Assembly: GCF_002571385.2 (NCBI RefSeq)
Contig: NW_019217896.1
Location: forward strand, 122,100 to 186,099
From: Stylophora pistillata
Lineage: Eukaryota
Length of the DNA: 64,000 nucleotides
Direction: 5' to 3'
Shown here: positions 4,706-12,900 of the stretch, piece after piece
Layout: every line of letters begins with the position of its first letter
Position numbering within the stretch: the first letter of the stretch is position 1
The notes under the pieces: generated by a model
What the model was told of the DNA's origin: nothing
The model's database searches: none
Seen by the model: the letters and a program-made list of their open reading frames with translations, nothing else
Position numbers and translations under genes: made by a program

Positions 4706-5906
4706 AAGTTGATATACACTGATCTGGATTTTTACTGAAGATTAATATTGAAGCTCTGATTGGTTCATTAGTTGAAAAAGTACTCGATCGAAAAGTCCGC
4801 TTTGAAAATGTGTTAACTAAAGCCATGGGATACATAATTTCCCAACAAGGCAAACAGCAGAGTTTAATCTAGCTTAAGACCTTGTTTAATCTAGGGTTAT
4901 ATGATACAGGAACTACTGTTCTTCTTTTGTTGAAAAAGACAAACAAAACACAAGTATCGAAAACTGCTTTTAATTTTAATTCAGCTACATAGAATTTCAG
5001 TCTCAACTGAAAAGTACTTAGTTCTACAGCCAATTTGTGTAGCGTTTTTAATGCCATATCTTTCAGCACAATATTCACTGTACATTAAATTCGTCTCGTA
5101 AATCGTTTAATTTCTTCTACTTTTTGACAAAAATACCATTCATTTTCAAACACTTGGAGGTTAGAAGAGTCTATGGGGCACGCCTGTATCGGTGCAGAAT
5201 TGTACATTAGGAAGAATAATAATCTGTTCTTGGGGGAAGGGTGATTCGTCTCTTTTAGCTACTTTAGAGAAAGACATTATTTTGTTCCATGCACCTCGAA
5301 GACGTCTGGGCTTCGTGAAAGTCAACAAGTTCGCGTCCTCTCTAAATTATTTCTGTGCGGGAACAAAGATATGTGTTCGTACACTTTTGAAGTCACGACA
5401 AACACAGAATCTGAGATGGTCGGAACGGGATCCATAGGTTTTTTATTTTTTCGCCGCTAACAACCGTAACCTTGCACGTTTACGAGGTAGTCGTCTTCTG
5501 TCACGTGATTTTGAAGTTGGCTGTCAATTGGTCCTTGTCCAGGTGCTTTGCTATTGGGGGGTAGGGGTAACGCACTCGCTCACCACGCATGTCAGGCACG
5601 CACGCTCTCGACATCTTTGGCGCTTCAAACTCACGCACTCTCGCACGCTCTCTCTGTGGTCGCCGTCACGTGATCAATTCTACAAGAGAAGGAACTAATG
5701 GTCAGAAAAGTGAAATAAATTGTAAGAGAATAGTTAGAGACGGGGGAGTATGGACGCGGAATCAGAAGCAAAGCACAGATGTCGCTTTTGTCTCTGTCGC
5801 GTGAGACAAGTGAAAACTGAATTCTTTGAGTCGTAAGCCGACGGATGGTCTGATAACTCATGATTGGTTGGTTCTCCTGCCTGTCTTTGCGACTCAGACC
5901 ACAAGC

Positions 5907-6166
5907 AGATCACACTATGTGTTCGTGGTTAATAATTGTTGACTTGAGACAAACAAGATCTATGAGAGTTACGAAAAATCTCTGAAAATTGCATATCTAA
6001 ATTACATCTCGGCCAGAATGTCTCAACATAAAGAGTAAATACATAAAGAGTAAATCGACTCATTTGTGATATTTTTTCGCCTTCATGGGCCGGAGGCCAA
6101 AAGTAATTCGGTAATTTTTTCGTCTTATGTCTACAATTATTAACCACGAATATATAGTATGGTCTG
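5907..6166. mobile_element. Small inverted-repeat element (MITE-like)
   Basis: CAGATCACACTATGTGTTCGTGGTTAATAATTGT at the left pairs imperfectly with ACAATTATTAACCACGAATATATAGTATGGTCTG at the right. Confidence 0.45.
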
Positions 6167-6340
6167 CCTGCGCTCAGACTATTTAGTTTTCACATGGTCG
6201 TGAGTGTCGGAGCCATCTGCGGAATCAGAGGGAAATGAACCTATCTGACTCTTGGTATCTTCCAGCTCCCCAGTAACGTCGAGCATGACTACCCCTTCGA
6301 CTTCGACTAAGACTCCGATTATACATCTGTCTCAGACGCT

Positions 6341-6356
6341 AATAATAATAATAATG

Positions 6357-6397
<41 letters not shown>

Positions 6398-6499
6398 CCT
6401 TTATCATTATAATGACTAAAAATATTTTTAAAAAATTATGATAAAATAGATTAAACTGTTTAATAAAAATCTAAGAAAAACTGACGGTACACGCTTCGT

Positions 6500-6536
<37 letters not shown>

Positions 6537-6620
6537 GTTTACTTGACCTTTAAAGAAGGAGAAGATAAAATATTATAATAATAATAATAATAATAATAAC
6601 AACAATAACAACAACAAACG
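6341..6620. repeat. (AAT)n/(AAC)n microsatellite cluster
   Basis: Three trinucleotide runs are directly visible. Confidence 0.95.
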
Positions 6621-6903
6621 AAACAGCCTTAATGTTGAAAGAACATAACATTCTACGGTAACAGCAAGAAAAGTCTGACTCTTCTATAGACTCTCGTATA
6701 TCATAAGTCCAAGCGCACCAAAGCAAGATCCAAGATCACCCTTAAATAAAAGATTAGCAATATTTTACTATACCGTACGGAACTGAGTTTGAACAAATAC
6801 CGAGACGTATCTATCGGATACAAAATTTGTATTTAACCATACTTCAAGACTTAAAACGGATTCAACGCGTTTGTGTATTAGGGAGAGAACTGCTGACTTA
6901 CAG

Positions 6904-9900
6904 CTAACTGACCTGCTGTTGTTTGAGCTTACGCAGTTCCTTAGTTGCCCATGTAGCGACTTGTTTGGTTTTGTGTGTCTTTGATCGTCGCCCTTCTTGT
7001 AACAGCTCGTTGATGGCTTGCTTTTCGAGCAGGACATGAACTTGGGCCCCGAATGCTGAGCAAATATCTCTACGAAAACAAAATCATTAAAATGAGTAAA
7101 ATGCATAGATAGCATGATTCAGTCTCTTGGAACAAACTTTTTTAAGGCGTCCTAATCGACGCGCAGTCGCCAAATGGTTGGTGCGCTGCAGTCCCGATTA
7201 AAAGGTCCCACTTCGAACGCAAGCCGGGATCATGGGGAAGACACTTCTATCTCAGTGCCTCTTCAGTCTCCACTTAGGCCCAGAGGAGTTAACAAATAGT
7301 AAACACCACACGCACATTGCTTAGTTATAGATGCACGCGGGAGGTTACTAAGCACGAAAGAAGCGTAAGTCGCGCGAGAAGATAGCCGAGAGCTTCTCTT
7401 GCTTCTTGAGTGCTTAGCAACCTCCCGCGTGCATCCAGAACTCAGTGGCGTACACCGTCGTGTTAACCATTTGTTTTGTACCATAACATTGATACATTGT
7501 AACAAAAGTGTTCCGTTTTTTTCTTAACAAATCTCACGTGGCCAGAAAAAAAAACATGCTCGCGTCAGCAGAGTACACCAATGGCAAAATGGCGGACACT
7601 GAATTGACCAATCACAATGCTCGCTTTACTTTGGTTATGTTATAATATAAAATAGATACCAGTGGAATTTTCAGGGGGATAAGGCTAAGTACTGGCAGCC
7701 TAGCTTATGACGGGCTCTTTGTCAGTAGAATTTCCATCACATTTCACCGGTATGTCACGCTGACTTGGAATGTGTTGGGGTACCCAGTGATTACAAGAGA
7801 CGCAGAGTTGTGAGTTGTGAAAAGGTCGCCATTAACTGGAATGAAGCATTTATGTAAGCTTTTGAAAGCAGACAGACCCCAAAGGAGAAAGAATAAACCA
7901 AAAGGTAACAAGGATAGTAGAGGACATACAAATAAGGTAATCTGGTTTTCTCAACTAACTTAAAATTGTAAATTGGCCACCGTAAAGAGTTAAAAAGCTG
8001 ACGTTTCGAGCGTTAGCCCTTCATCAGAGCGAAAGACGAAGGGCTAACGCTCAAAACGTCGGCTTTTAACTCTTTACTAAGGCCAATTTTCATTATGAAC
8101 TCATTTGATAAAACCAAATTACCTTGTCCCCCCACCGACGCAGCTCCCGACATACAAATAACACGGTTTGCAAATGACGAACTTGAAAAGTAACATTAAT
8201 ATCCACATTCTCCACACTGTTCTCTTTACATTTTCTACGGTTGTGACAAGGAGAGTTTGTTTGACAATCAGGAGCTTCTCCAATTGGTGATCGTTTCCTT
8301 TATTCTCATGACCTTTAGTTTACATTTTATTTCAGGGTGATAATGCAAAGGAGAAATTTGAAGCTAGTCACTCTTAGAGTTAAAGTGTTGAAGGCATTAC
8401 CATGGGATGAAAAAGATCTGGATCAATGATTCAAAGCCACATCACTCGGTTTACCTGAGCGGCTCACAAACTCCTCATACAATGAATAAAGGCTGATAGT
8501 TTCGAAAGAAACTGTTTGGGCCTGCGTCGGTGGGAGTAACGAAATAATTTGGATATATCAACAAAGTTGAAATGGTAAATTGGCCACCGTAACGAATACA
8601 ATGTCCTCATACAATGTCCTCATACAATGACCACCTACCCAACAAGACCACAAGCACTGGACACATTGCTTTCCGTATGATCCACGTCTGTTGCTATGAC
8701 CTCAATGAAGTTGATGATATGCAGAAGGTGAGGCTGAATTACATCCAGAACTAATTTAAAAATCACAACCGCAATAAGACTGACGGATTGAAGATGATTC
8801 GAATTACAACTAACAGCAAGAATGAATGACATTAGAATAATTGCTTCACTGGGTACCATTTAGGGTTCCATAGTAAAAGGTTTCTTTTAAAGAAACTGGC
8901 CAAAAAGGGCTCAGGTCGCCCCCTTCTTTAATTTTACGGAGCCCTATTTCAAAAATGGGGACCCAATAAAGGGAACCCAATACAGGGGACCCTATAAATG
9001 ACCAAATAAAGGGGACCCAATTAAGGGGGCACTACAGAAGGTTTCAAAGTACTTGTAGAGTATATTCAGTGAGAAAACGAAGAAGCTACATAGCAGCGCT
9101 CGTACAAATCTTGTTGTCAATTATGTTTTCGAACACATTATTTAATAAAACGAACACGACTTTAAAATACGTAGTGCTTAGCCTTGAGCACAATTTTTTG
9201 CACCCCATTTCACGCTAAATCGTAAGTTTTAGGCGGTATTTCTTTTCCAATTACGGAAATCCTGCAAAGCTGCGCTCTAGAACAAACTCTGACGGTAAGA
9301 AATTCGGGAAAGAGAGATGTTAAGGAGCTTCACTATACTTACGACCAGGTGTGGGACTGGGTCCGTCAGTAGAGCCTTTTAGTCCTTGTATAATGCCAGT
9401 GTAAGCTTCTAAACATCCTTCCCTGAGCTCATTTAAGTAGTCCACCATGTCATAATCCGCCTGAAATTCAGACCGAAAGATTTGGGGTAACTATCTTGTA
9501 AGAGAAATTGATCAATACAGCAGATCAAATAAAAACCTGATATCAAGTTTGGGGAGGACAACCTCCCAGGAACTTCAAACTTCCTGGAAGGTTGTCTTCT
9601 CTCCACTTGGCTACACTTCCTTCTATCCTGGAAGTGTAGCCAAGTGGACAACGGCATCAGTCGGCGTCAAAAGATTATTCTGTTCTGCAGCTGTTTGTTT
9701 TGTGGAGAATCGGTATCCAGTTGCATATCAACTGGATAACGATTTGTTTTCTATATGACGTTTTTACCCTTAAATAAACAAATCAGATATAAGTTATGTT
9801 GTGATTCGCCAGCCAACATTTTGTATCTTCGTTTCCTGGTTACAAATCGAACTGAAATGGAGCGAAGGTTTCAGCGGAGAGAAACATTGGAGAAACTGAA

Positions 9901-12900
9901 GGAATACCCTTGAAGAAAAAGTGGCAATCAACAACAGAATCAGCCCACTCGTAACGCCTATTTCAATGAATCAAGCCCGGGCTATGGTGGTCGAAGGTGA
10001 ACTCTCCCCTCCTCCTTTCCTGCCTTCTGCCCTCCCGTACCACGTCCCCTCCCCCCGAAACCTACCATCCTGATTCTCAACAAACTTGACCTTGATTGAT
10101 TGAAGTTCCCCTACACAGGCTCTTAGACCCTGAACAGAAGTCCGTTAAAGATCGTTCATGGGCGTATAGGTTGTCACAAAAATGTTGAGGTCACCAGTAT
10201 CGTTTGTTTTTTCTCTCTAAGCTTCACAACTCATTTTAGTACTTTCAGAACGTTTGTATGCATTGAAATCTATTTTTTTTAATCCATCCAACTTTAAATA
10301 ACTTACTTTGTCCACAATCGTAACAGATGCTTGATTCAGAGTTGCTATGACAACATCAAAGTAGGGAGAGAAACTGGGCCCGATGGCTAAAGCAACATCA
10401 CCAAACACCGAGAGAATATGAGGTTTGACGCTGCGATGGACATTTGCGTCCTGTTAAAATGCAAAATGAAACTCCTTACTAGAAAGAACAAACACAGCAA
10501 TCGAACGTCAACGCATGTACGTGCGCTGTAACTGCGAAAAAACAAAACCAAAACAATGCAAATGAAGAGCACCACAAAGAGTACCTCAAAGAAGAGGTGT
10601 CGCGCATCGTACAAATTTAAAACAAGTGTAAGTAAACAACGTTGTTCTCACCCCCTTTCCCGCTCCCCCGTCCAAATTTACTTACACATAAATTTAGTTT
10701 CTGGATAACAGCATGAAAAGAAAAGAATGCTGGTATCAACAGCTACAGATAAGCGTGGAACCAAAAAAAAAAAAAAAACAAAATCAAAAACAGAAAAACC
10801 CATCATGCGAGGGGCATGAATCCTGACGATAGAGTGAAAATACTCACCGCCAGGTTCTCCATTAAAATCTGCATGAAAAGGTCACTGACGTTCATTATTT
10901 TTTCTCCCAGTGCTCTAGCAATGTCTCCAACTAGTCCAACAGCGGCAACACAAACCTATTATAGAAAGATGGATGGAAAACATTATTACAGTGACAGAGA
11001 AACTACTTATTCATCTACTTGTCTGTTGTATAATTACTCACGTTCTGTTACTCATTGATTGAAGATGGCATAAGCATGCCAAAACATGTCTCTCAAAAAA
11101 GTTGTCTATTTCTTACAATATTTGAGCTTTAATTGTCACATCTCACAGATGTGTGTTAAACAGATAAACAAATTGGTGTTCTCAGGCGCGTAGCGTCCTA
11201 TACGCATATACGCACGTGCGTACTTCAAGTGACCAGAAAATTTTGAAATTTTTAGCAATTGATTTTTACGCTCAGTTTACTTAGGTTTCTAGATCATATG
11301 TACTTGTGCGTACTTGAAAAAATGACCACGCTACGCGCCTGGTTCTTAAGAGATTTAAAAACATTATTACCAGTAATGTAATGCCGCGTTTATACAAAGC
11401 TTTTATTCCACTACACTTTCAATATTGCTCCCTTGCAAGTACAATACAAGTGCAGTACATTGATTCATTTACCCGTTTGGCTGATTAAGTATCACCTCTT
11501 CGCATGGCTGCTGACTCTGCACATTGCAGACTTTTAAGCCTTGCTTGGAGACCAAAATAATCCATTTTAAAGGACAATGGTCATACAGAAGAAGAAGACA
11601 TTCTTTAACTTAGCTTGGTCCTTAAGTTAACATTAACGTGAGCTAAGTAAAGTTAATGCTAAACGGCATCTTGAATGCTAGAAAAACAATAGCTGAACAA
11701 AACTACATTGACGCTGATCGATCGACTGTGTTAAATTCGGCATTGCTTCACTGGAATTTACCACTCAATGATAATAACTCAGTTATTAAAGTAAGGCGGG
11801 AACAATGCAGTTCCTTTCCTCTGAACTATATATTTAGGAGAGTGTTTCAAACGTTATTTCACTGAAAACACACTATTCAGAAATATGGCGTTACTGAAGT
11901 GCCACAAAAGTTACACAAGTGCCACAAAAGTTAGACAAGTGCCACAAAAGTTACATGAGTGCCACAAGTTACACGAGTGCCAAAAAGTTACACGAGTGCC
12001 ACAAAGTTACACGAGTGCCACAAAGTTACAGGAGTGCCACAAAGTTACACAAGTGCCACAAAGTTACACGAGTGCCACAAAGTTACACGAGTGCCACAAA
12101 AGTTGCAAGAGTGCCACAAAAGTTACACGAGTGCCACAAAAGTTACATGAGTGCCAGGTTACAATAGTGCCATAAGTTACATAAGTGCCATTAAAGTTAC
12201 AGAAGTGCCACTGTAGGTTACGCGAGTGCCACTTTGCGTTACACAAGTGCCACAGTGAGGTTACAAAATTGCCTTTATGTCTAGCTCTCTACAAGGATAA
12301 ATCACCTGGTATTCAACTCGCTCTCTCAGTGCTTCTATTAAATAAGGCTTGAAAGATTCCATGTAAGGGTCAAAATTCATCCCAAGAACTAAAAAAGAGA
12401 CAAGATTTGATATGGATGATCAGACTACCACACCACACAGGTGACTGCTACTCCTGTGTTCAAGCCAGCCCTTTTTTTTTTTTTTAAATTAAATATCAAG
12501 AATTACTTAACAGATATGAAAGAAATTACATTATTACACTACATCACAATGATAAATTACCTACAATAGTACATTACGTTACAATACTGCTTTATTAACA
12601 CGATACTATTACTAACAACGCTATAAGTACAATTTAAATTAAACAAATAACTGCAATGTTTATTAAATTTATCAAAAAAAAAAATTATTTTAGGGGCACT
12701 TTTGCCAGGCCACTTAGAAAGATGAAAAGAGCTGAAAAACATTCAATTAAGTTAAAGTTGTATCAGAACTCAAGTCAGAGTTATCAGAGGAATTCATAGT
12801 GACCGCATGGGTGCACGAGTGCTTCTCCTGCATTCAAACCAGTAACTGTGTTACAAGTTTGATGATTCATTTTATTATTTGTGAACATACCTTCCACTAG

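What the first reader, a model, noticed from the sequence alone, without database searches (positions are those of the whole stretch)
7936..8148. Family of short non-coding palindromic retroelements carrying minimal hammerhead ribozymes, with a shared fold-back junction and ~13-bp TSDs
Seen: six related copies (7936-8148, 8485-8597, 14805-14900, ~29235-29420, 42869-43113, 43567-43908). Copies A, B and C share the same asymmetric junction (CCCTTC.TC.GAGCGAAAGACGAAGGG, reversed and slightly decayed in B). In A and C one arm keeps a full hammerhead (CUGANGA...GAAA..UC) while the mirror arm lacks the CU of the core. Four copies have 12-13 bp flanking direct repeats. Known: Penelope-like elements have pLTRs with minimal hammerheads and often an inverted pLTR. 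Inference: a shared junction in dispersed, diverged copies means either that a ~210-250 bp hairpin ribozyme unit is itself propagated by Penelope RT/GIY-YIG machinery, or that template switching recurs at one fixed site next to the ribozyme core.
Basis: partly seen in the sequence, partly recalled or inferred. Interest (0 to 1): 0.7.

Follow-up and report, generated by a model that had tools for sequence, protein, structure and literature searches.

The report
Penelope stubs joined at RNA start
These small mirror-image insertions are the shortest stumps of a very common Penelope-type jumping gene in a coral-type genome, not a separate ribozyme family; each was likely built afresh by copying the start of one RNA onto both cut DNA strands, so the set helps test how these elements make their inverted ends.

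Summary
The copies, the shared junction in A, B and C, and four 12-13 bp target duplications are real. The reading as a propagated hairpin-ribozyme unit is not supported. The arms are the pLTR plus tail of a Neptune-type Penelope-like element (RT, C-terminal GIY-YIG). The shared junction is 44 of about 688 fold-backs, and two other junctions are commoner (154 and 197). Arms group by copy, not by side. Of 143 head-to-head pairs, 114 have one tailed and one tail-less arm, with a TSD mode of 13-14 bp. Either arm can reach further 5', at any age, which argues against one arm being copied from the other. Arm ends pile up 7 nt above the hammerhead core, 31 nt below a TATA box: the likely RNA start, not the ribozyme cut site. 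Best model (inferred): two primings, one per nicked strand, on one RNA, with the cDNAs joined at its 5' end. The hammerhead is predicted to be buried in the hairpin, and young lineages carry U4C. Copy B is probably an assembly fold-back. The architecture is in print, and this scan reached the same model earlier in other genomes.

The parts
7936..8148 (.). Copy A: head-to-head pair, older subfamily c (CUGA core). Left arm tail-less (to +89), right arm with a partial tail (to +113); positions count from hammerhead C3 = 0
7923..7935 (+). 13-bp TSD of copy A (second copy 8149-8161)
7997..8030 (-). Minimal type I hammerhead motif of copy A; predicted cut between 8000 and 7999; stems I and II have pairing probability 0 in the folded palindrome
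8026..8034 (.). 9-nt junction loop of copy A (U4 back to -6 plus one non-templated or changed base); same loop in C at 42959-42967
8485..8601 (-). Copy D: single tailed arm (+33 to +148), no hammerhead; 13-bp TSD at 8472-8484 and 8604-8616
14805..14900 (-). Copy E: tailed arm (about +57 to +148) cut by an N run; inner end unknown
29234..29420 (.). Copy B: two tail-less arms, core CCGACAA (broken at two positions), no TSD
28786..29868 (.). 537-bp arm inverted repeat centred on copy B and including its flank; probable assembly fold-back
42869..43113 (.). Copy C: subfamily a; the core-bearing arm is tail-less, the mirror arm is tailed (a non-nested pair); 13-bp TSD at 42856-42868 and 43114-43126
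42930..42963 (-). Hammerhead motif of copy C; its CUGA is likely CpG decay of the subfamily's CCGA
43567..43909 (.). Copy F: subfamily b; tailed arm to -58, tail-less arm to -44, both CCGA; 11/12-bp TSD at 43555-43566 and 43910-43921
43781..43788 (+). TATA-like TTTAAAAG at -31 to -24 from the inferred RNA start (A at 43812)

Best explanation
These palindromes are the shortest head-to-head insertions of the pLTR and tail of an abundant Neptune-type Penelope-like retrotransposon, likely built anew at each site by two reverse-transcription events, one primed at each nicked target strand, whose cDNAs would run to the RNA's 5' end and be joined there. Shown here: the parent element, two fixed outer ends (+90 and +148), one of each per pair, 13-14 bp TSDs, arms that match within a copy, varied junctions crowded at -9 to +7, and the pLTR and tail standing both after the ORF and 5' of its ATG. 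Inferred: (1) the element's protein nicks both strands 13-14 nt apart; (2) one 3' end primes at +90 and the other at +148, mostly on the same RNA; (3) priming at the tail copy near the mRNA 5' end gives short cDNAs that run off at a Pol II start 7 nt above hammerhead C3; (4) the first cDNA to arrive switches template onto antisense cDNA, through a 4-nt TTCG microhomology or a 0-1 nt match, which gives recurring junctions. The hammerhead is a passenger in these stubs.
For: Parent: the arm continues upstream into a 470-533 aa open frame with RT and GIY-YIG hits; 2057 exact matches to the upstream-continuing motif; in L221 and L229 the tail runs on about 75-80 nt to the ORF's ATG. Pairing: 114 of 143 pairs are tailed plus tail-less, 7 are like-with-like and unmirrored, 15 have an odd end, 7 are flank-mirrored; 31 of 38 in the set picked by an arm motif alone; 16 of 19 in subfamily c, with 3 cut short (hand count). 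TSD of 10 bp or more in 77 of 114, 47 of them 13-14 bp. Non-nesting: with 5' ends at least 30 nt apart and no N at the joint, the tail-less arm reaches further in 9 pairs and the tailed arm in 9; non-nested pairs are 27 of 77, and 4/13, 10/22 and 13/42 from young to old. Same source: 40 of 213 rare variants are shared by the partner arm against 1.3% in shuffled pairs; subfamily agrees in 97 of 112 pairs; long arms pair with long arms (Fisher p = 0.005, 37 pairs). RNA start: of 108 arms, 38 end at -9 to -1, 19 at 0 to +7 and none at -42 to -10; TTTAAAAG at -31 in the young subfamilies and TATAAA at -31 with TCCA(+1)TT in the older one (about 65 of 100 listed, hand count). In vitro, a Penelope-like protein cuts and extends both strands, starts at two internal sites that bound the tail, is predicted to be a dimer, and does not need hammerhead cleavage (PMC11167929).
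Against: The RNA start is not shown: three raw RNA runs were unstranded, looked like passive transcription of many copies, and showed no pile of molecule starts. An extra G, as cap copying might leave, is rare (3 of 215). 145 of 288 insertions are single arms by BLAST (70 tailed, 68 tail-less, 7 other), and in the earlier set most singles had no TSD found. Seven unmirrored pairs are like-with-like. Some pairs have arms of different haplotype (L114 with an N at the joint, L265 without), so one RNA is not universal. Shared rare variants could also come from arm-to-arm gene conversion. Most loci were picked by junction or motif patterns, ends come from BLAST (plus or minus a few nt), and the assembly has gaps inside the element. 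The in vitro data are from a Poseidon-clade element with a shorter tail.
Confidence: 0.65

Rival explanations
1. One priming only: a single cDNA (or an antisense RNA, as proposed in PMC3846280) folds back and copies itself, and non-nested pairs arise later by inversion of the centre between the arms or by a separate tail-adding step.
For: Arms match within copies. The 9-nt loop junction is precise, as a snap-back would be (215 of 688). Nested pairs are the majority (50 of 77; 34 against 12 at the 9-nt loop junction).
Against: Non-nested pairs are as common among the youngest pairs as among the oldest (4/13 against 13/42; Mann-Whitney p = 0.65). A self-copy cannot add a tail absent from its template, and it does not explain why nearly every pair has exactly one tail. 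The numbers in the age test are small.
Confidence: 0.22
2. Same twin priming, but the pile-up at -7 comes from an RT stop at RNA structure or a splice or processing site, not from a transcription start.
For: No direct start data. In D. virilis the intron end maps to the 5' end of helix I (PMC4209133).
Against: The TATA box and initiator-like spacing fit -7 exactly in two lineages; no AG precedes -7 (sequence); the stop lies past the hammerhead, not before it.
Confidence: 0.08
3. A 210-250 bp hairpin unit with a fixed junction is itself transcribed and propagated in trans, like a retrozyme or other non-autonomous element.
For: 44-50 exact copies of one junction; TSDs; fold-back joints are present in RNA reads; pLTRs can act in trans (PMC3846280).
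Against: No side-specific variants and no clustering by side; the same junction in four subfamilies; many other junctions; the tail lies on either side of the loop; no tandem units seen; a continuum of arm lengths up to more than 1.5 kb. A few secondary copies cannot be excluded.
Confidence: 0.04

Closest known systems
EN+ Penelope-like element insertions with inverted pLTR, optional tail and TSD (Adineta Pen2a, PMC3846280; overview in PMC8557442; D. virilis Penelope, PMC2377424)
   Same: Head-to-head pLTRs inside one TSD, tail at the 3' end of one of them, TATA and initiator-like motifs in the pLTR, pLTR overlapping the element's 5' leader.
   Different: Here hundreds of pairs have no ORF at all. 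The tail is about 58 nt (30-40 in print), the TSD is 13-14 bp (8-10 in Adineta), and the data favour two primings over the self-priming on an antisense template proposed there.
Poseidon element of Anolis (PAc) in vitro (PMC11167929)
   Same: Two internal start sites bounding the tail, both strands cut and extended, AT-rich targets (73% A+T in 62 TSDs), hammerhead not needed for insertion.
   Different: Different clade. The main text that I read does not derive the inverted pair from joining the two cDNAs, and it gives no junction or TSD statistics.
Minimal hammerheads of metazoan PLEs (PMC4209133)
   Same: Type I core without helix III, palindromic ACGU, extra base before stem II; the paper notes dual motifs 100-700 bp apart on opposite strands.
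   Different: Stem I is 3 bp and stem II 4 bp; U4C in the young lineages; opposite-strand arms cannot form the dimer on one transcript.
Animal non-LTR retrozymes (bioRxiv 10.64898/2026.07.22.740005; PMC7229834, listing only)
   Same: Short, non-coding, hammerhead-bearing, PLE-related.
   Different: Retrozymes are head-to-tail tandem units with a hammerhead in each; these are head-to-head stubs nearly identical to the autonomous parent.
L1 twin priming (recalled; no paper read here)
   Same: Both target ends prime on one RNA and the cDNAs are joined by microhomology.
   Different: L1 inversions cover non-overlapping parts of the RNA; here both cDNAs cover the same stretch and give a palindrome.

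Membership tests
EN+ Penelope-like element | Single ORF with RT and C-terminal GIY-YIG | tested here: met
   RVT_1 E=8e-6 and GIY-YIG E=2e-4 on L124, both just under Pfam's curated cut-offs; 533-aa open frame in L204. No full ORF seen in one piece because of assembly gaps.
EN+ Penelope-like element | [quoted passage not shown] | tested here: met
   VIYCITCTYCKKIYIG followed by conserved H residues (definition)
EN+ Penelope-like element | pLTR both after the ORF and before the ORF start | tested here: met
   ORF stop about 100 nt above C3; tail runs on to the ATG in L221 and L229
EN+ Penelope-like element | Inverted 5'-truncated pLTR, tail at one end, TSD | tested here: met
   114 of 143 pairs; TSD mode 13-14 bp
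Neptune/Nematis clades | CX2-5CxxC motif in the RT-EN linker | tested here: met
   CARARCKTC (definition)
Neptune clade | Placement in an RT phylogeny | not tested
   No reference PLE proteins were fetched; 'Neptune-type' rests on the linker motif alone
PLE minimal hammerhead | Core CUGANGA...GAAA..UH with helices I and II | tested here: inconclusive
   Met in subfamily c (CTGA 11 of 17) and in copies A and C; U4C in 142 of 177 young arms; no hammerhead family among the 17 Rfam matches up to E=1
PLE minimal hammerhead | Self-cleavage as a dimer | not testable with these tools
   Indirect only: arms ending at the cut site are 5 against 243 intact (subfamily c) and 24 against 4217 (a, a', b), p = 0.02, mostly explicable by AGC(T) microhomology (hand counts)
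Non-LTR retrozyme | Head-to-tail tandem units, each with a hammerhead | tested here: not met
   No such tandem units in the window or in loci L131-L200; arms are single or head-to-head
Non-LTR retrozyme | Circular or unit-length RNA | tested here: inconclusive
   No pile of starts or ends in three unstranded raw RNA runs, about 2% of each read; such libraries can miss small RNAs
Independently propagated non-autonomous element | Copies inherit junction and side-specific variants | tested here: not met

The most novel reading that the evidence does not exclude
Penelope-like elements integrate by asymmetric double priming: one protein dimer on one RNA primes both target strands at the two edges of the tail and joins the cDNAs head to head, so the inverted pLTR, the one-sided tail and the TSD are one event. 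The stubs are strong-stop-like copies that record the element's Pol II start to the base, and the most recently expanding lineage did so with a U4C hammerhead core, so efficient self-cleavage is dispensable in vivo.
Probability: 0.5. Interest if true: 0.62.

Novelty: new member of a known kind. Interest (0 to 1): 0.4.

Why it matters
The papers read here call the origin of the PLE tandem and inverted structures and of the tail undefined (PMC8557442). Thousands of young arms in one genome give counts that separate the models: one tail per pair, non-nested arms at all ages, and a sharp stop at a promoter-like site. They define a short RNA (-7 to +148) and a 13-14 nt stagger for an in vitro test. 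For annotation, such palindromes should be filed as PLE stubs, and flank-mirrored ones checked as assembly errors.

Tried and rejected
Rfam scan of the window: no hammerhead match, only hairpin-driven miRNA hits below gathering score and four tRNA-like hits elsewhere. A guessed pattern for tail plus ORF start found nothing; the real continuation came. RNA reads for the start site or the cut site: uninformative, unstranded, no piles. Junction at the ribozyme cut site as the explanation: rejected, the hot spot is about 35 nt upstream of it; a minor cluster at +25 to +33 (8 of 108) and the genome-wide counts are weak and confounded by microhomology. Cap-copied G: not supported (3 of 215). Flank-mirrored pairs as true snap-back run-on: not excluded, but 5 of the 7 examined end at or within 15 bp of an N (2 ran off the locus), and single unbroken contigs cross the mirror end of copy B at 29868 in three runs of one study. 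Literature searches for the twin-priming reading listed 4, 3, 8 and 3 papers; none that I opened proposes it for PLEs. Subscription papers (e.g. the 2005 and 2006 PLE reviews) and all supplements were not seen and may bear on this. No structure or complex prediction was run.

Full report
Positions below count from hammerhead C3 = 0 on the element's sense strand. The window is G000:C113:122100-186099 of a 398-Mb animal assembly. Public RNA runs that hold the element are labelled 'organism A' or 'coral metagenome'.

Observation. The six copies, the junction shared by A, B and C, the hammerhead-like core on one arm of A and C, and four flanking repeats of 12-13 bp are in the sequence. D and E are single arms without the core, F is joined further upstream, and B has no TSD.

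Parent element. Upstream of the core, 2057 places continue with one shared motif. [quoted passage not shown] By the definitions in PMC8557442 this is a C-terminal EN+ Penelope-like element of Neptune/Nematis type; no tree was built. In two loci the same pLTR and tail run on to the ATG of the ORF, so the stretch is also the 5' leader. One exact 24-mer of the arm occurs 5758 times. RT-coding copies are up to 100% identical over 398 bp, so the lineage is young.

Junctions. About 688 places have arms meeting within 30 nt of the core (50 listed, with many different centres). A junction through a TTCG microhomology matches 197 places, and 104 pairs meet further downstream. Among 108 arms picked by an arm motif alone, 31 reach -43 or beyond, none ends at -42 to -10, 38 end at -9 to -1, 19 at 0 to +7 and 20 further down. 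TTTAAAAG lies at -31 to -24 from A(-7) in the young subfamilies; the older one has TATAAA at -31 and TCCATT around that A (about 65 of the 100 rows listed of 163; these are copies of one lineage, not independent cases). The TATA and initiator consensus and spacing are recalled. I infer that -7 is the Pol II start. RNA reads could not test it.

Outer ends and TSD. Arms end near +90 or near +148. In 288 distinct insertions from loci L001-L320 and the window, 143 are head-to-head pairs: 114 tailed plus tail-less, 15 with one odd end, 4 both tailed, 3 both tail-less, 7 flank-mirrored; 145 are single arms by BLAST. Most loci were chosen by junction or motif patterns; in the subset chosen by the arm motif alone, 31 of 38 pairs are tailed plus tail-less. 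TSDs are 10 bp or more in 77 of 114 such pairs, 47 of them 13-14 bp; 300 mismatched flank pairs gave at most 8. Subfamily c shows the same pattern (16 of 19 pairs in 30 loci, hand count).

Arms of one copy differ by 6.6%, cores from each other by 10.6% and mirrors by 13.1%; side needs 19 changes on the tree against 16.3 in shuffles (78 columns, weak resolution); both arms agree in subfamily in 20 copies and 4 could not be fully assigned. In 94 pairs of any junction, diagnostic sites differ in 12.6% within pairs and 30.6% between, and 40 of 213 rare variants are shared by the partner against 1.3% expected. So the fold-back is remade at each insertion.

One priming or two. If one arm were copied from the other it would be contained in it. 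In 27 of 77 informative pairs the tail-less arm reaches further 5' while the other has the tail; the share is 4/13, 10/22 and 13/42 by rising arm-to-arm divergence. With differences of 30 nt or more it is 9 against 9. Copy C is such a pair. Later inversion of the centre could make them, but should accumulate with age. Long arms pair with long arms (4, 1, 4, 28; p = 0.005), as expected if both cDNAs start at the same tail copy on one RNA. Eight of 112 pairs disagree in subfamily (six of them at a single CpG site) and 7 are unassigned. This matches the in vitro behaviour of the Anolis Poseidon protein, which cuts and extends both strands and starts at two sites bounding the tail (PMC11167929), and departs from the self-priming reading in PMC3846280.

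Ribozyme. In the folded palindromes of A, B and C, stems I and II have pairing probability 0; in the arm alone they reach at most 0.10. The second arm is antisense, so the dimer that minimal hammerheads need (PMC4209133) cannot form within one stub. Young subfamilies a, a' and b have CCGA in 142 of 177 arms, CTGA in 14 and CCAA in 10, the pattern of CpG decay; subfamily c has CTGA in 11 of 17. U4C considerably lowers activity in vitro yet sufficed in a viroid (PMC3088659, passage), so the motif may be weak rather than dead. Arms ending exactly at the cut site are few: 24 of 85 rows against 4217 intact in a, a' and b, 5 of 17 rows against 243 in c (hand counts; p = 0.02), mostly at AGC(T) microhomology. 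Earlier notes of this scan reported cut-site stops in other genomes; here I find at most a weak trace.

Copy B. Its mirror includes 449 bp of flank with no further mismatch and stops 15 bp from an N run; of 7 such cases examined, 5 end at or beside an N and 2 run off the locus. In three public runs of one study a single contig crosses 29868 unbroken. An assembly fold-back is likely; the N in the window may be a mask, so this is not certain.

What is known. The inverted pLTR, one-sided tail and TSD are described (PMC3846280, PMC8557442), as are opposite-strand hammerhead pairs (PMC4209133). My searches gave no paper that I opened which derives the inverted pair from two primings. Earlier agents of this scan proposed it for other genomes, after I had reached it (note); that is not independent support. 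Seen of each paper: PMC11167929 parts 1-2 of 4 (main text); PMC4209133 parts 1-2 of 4; PMC3846280 part 2 of 5 and passages; PMC8557442, PMC3088659, PMC8969392 passages; PMC2377424 abstract and passages; bioRxiv 10.64898/2026.07.22.740005 part 1 of 5; PMC7229834 listing only; no supplements.

Verdict. A real feature and a new member of a known kind: miniature inverted-pLTR insertions of a coral Penelope-like element. Identity as de novo PLE stubs about 0.93; full mechanism 0.65; interest 0.4.

Noticed in passing
window 27357-28468: 250-bp repeat units with four tRNA-like hits (48.9 bits) arranged as a perfect 469-bp fold-back that ends 2 bp from an N run. Earlier notes on this genome describe a tRNA-bearing Penelope-mobilised unit of this size; I did not check that it is the same.
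   Followed up: no
window 29430-29740 and 51342-51633: Another repeat family beside copy B; reads and contigs show joints going back about 280 nt, suggesting a tandem or permuted unit.
   Followed up: no
window 8604-8629: The TSD of copy D occurs twice in tandem on one side, after a partial copy.
   Followed up: partly
L031, L033, L144, L157, L184 junctions: Some centres hold several short repeated pieces of the +2 to +16 region in both orientations, as from repeated template jumps.
   Followed up: partly
L101 and L102, core to tail: With CCGA the stretch from the core to the tail end is open in one frame, whereas CTGA puts a stop there; no ATG was seen, so it may be chance.
   Followed up: no
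L106:1546 in RNA runs X22-X24: A related, well-represented family shares the hammerhead region but diverges just after the predicted cut site (loose ends).
   Followed up: no
window 41081-41694; 11870-12176; 6331-6633: Tandem arrays of 68-bp, 19-20-bp and AAT units.
   Followed up: no
window 57095-57318 and 5894-6178: Two further imperfect inverted repeats (88 and 63 bp arms) that do not match this family.
   Followed up: no
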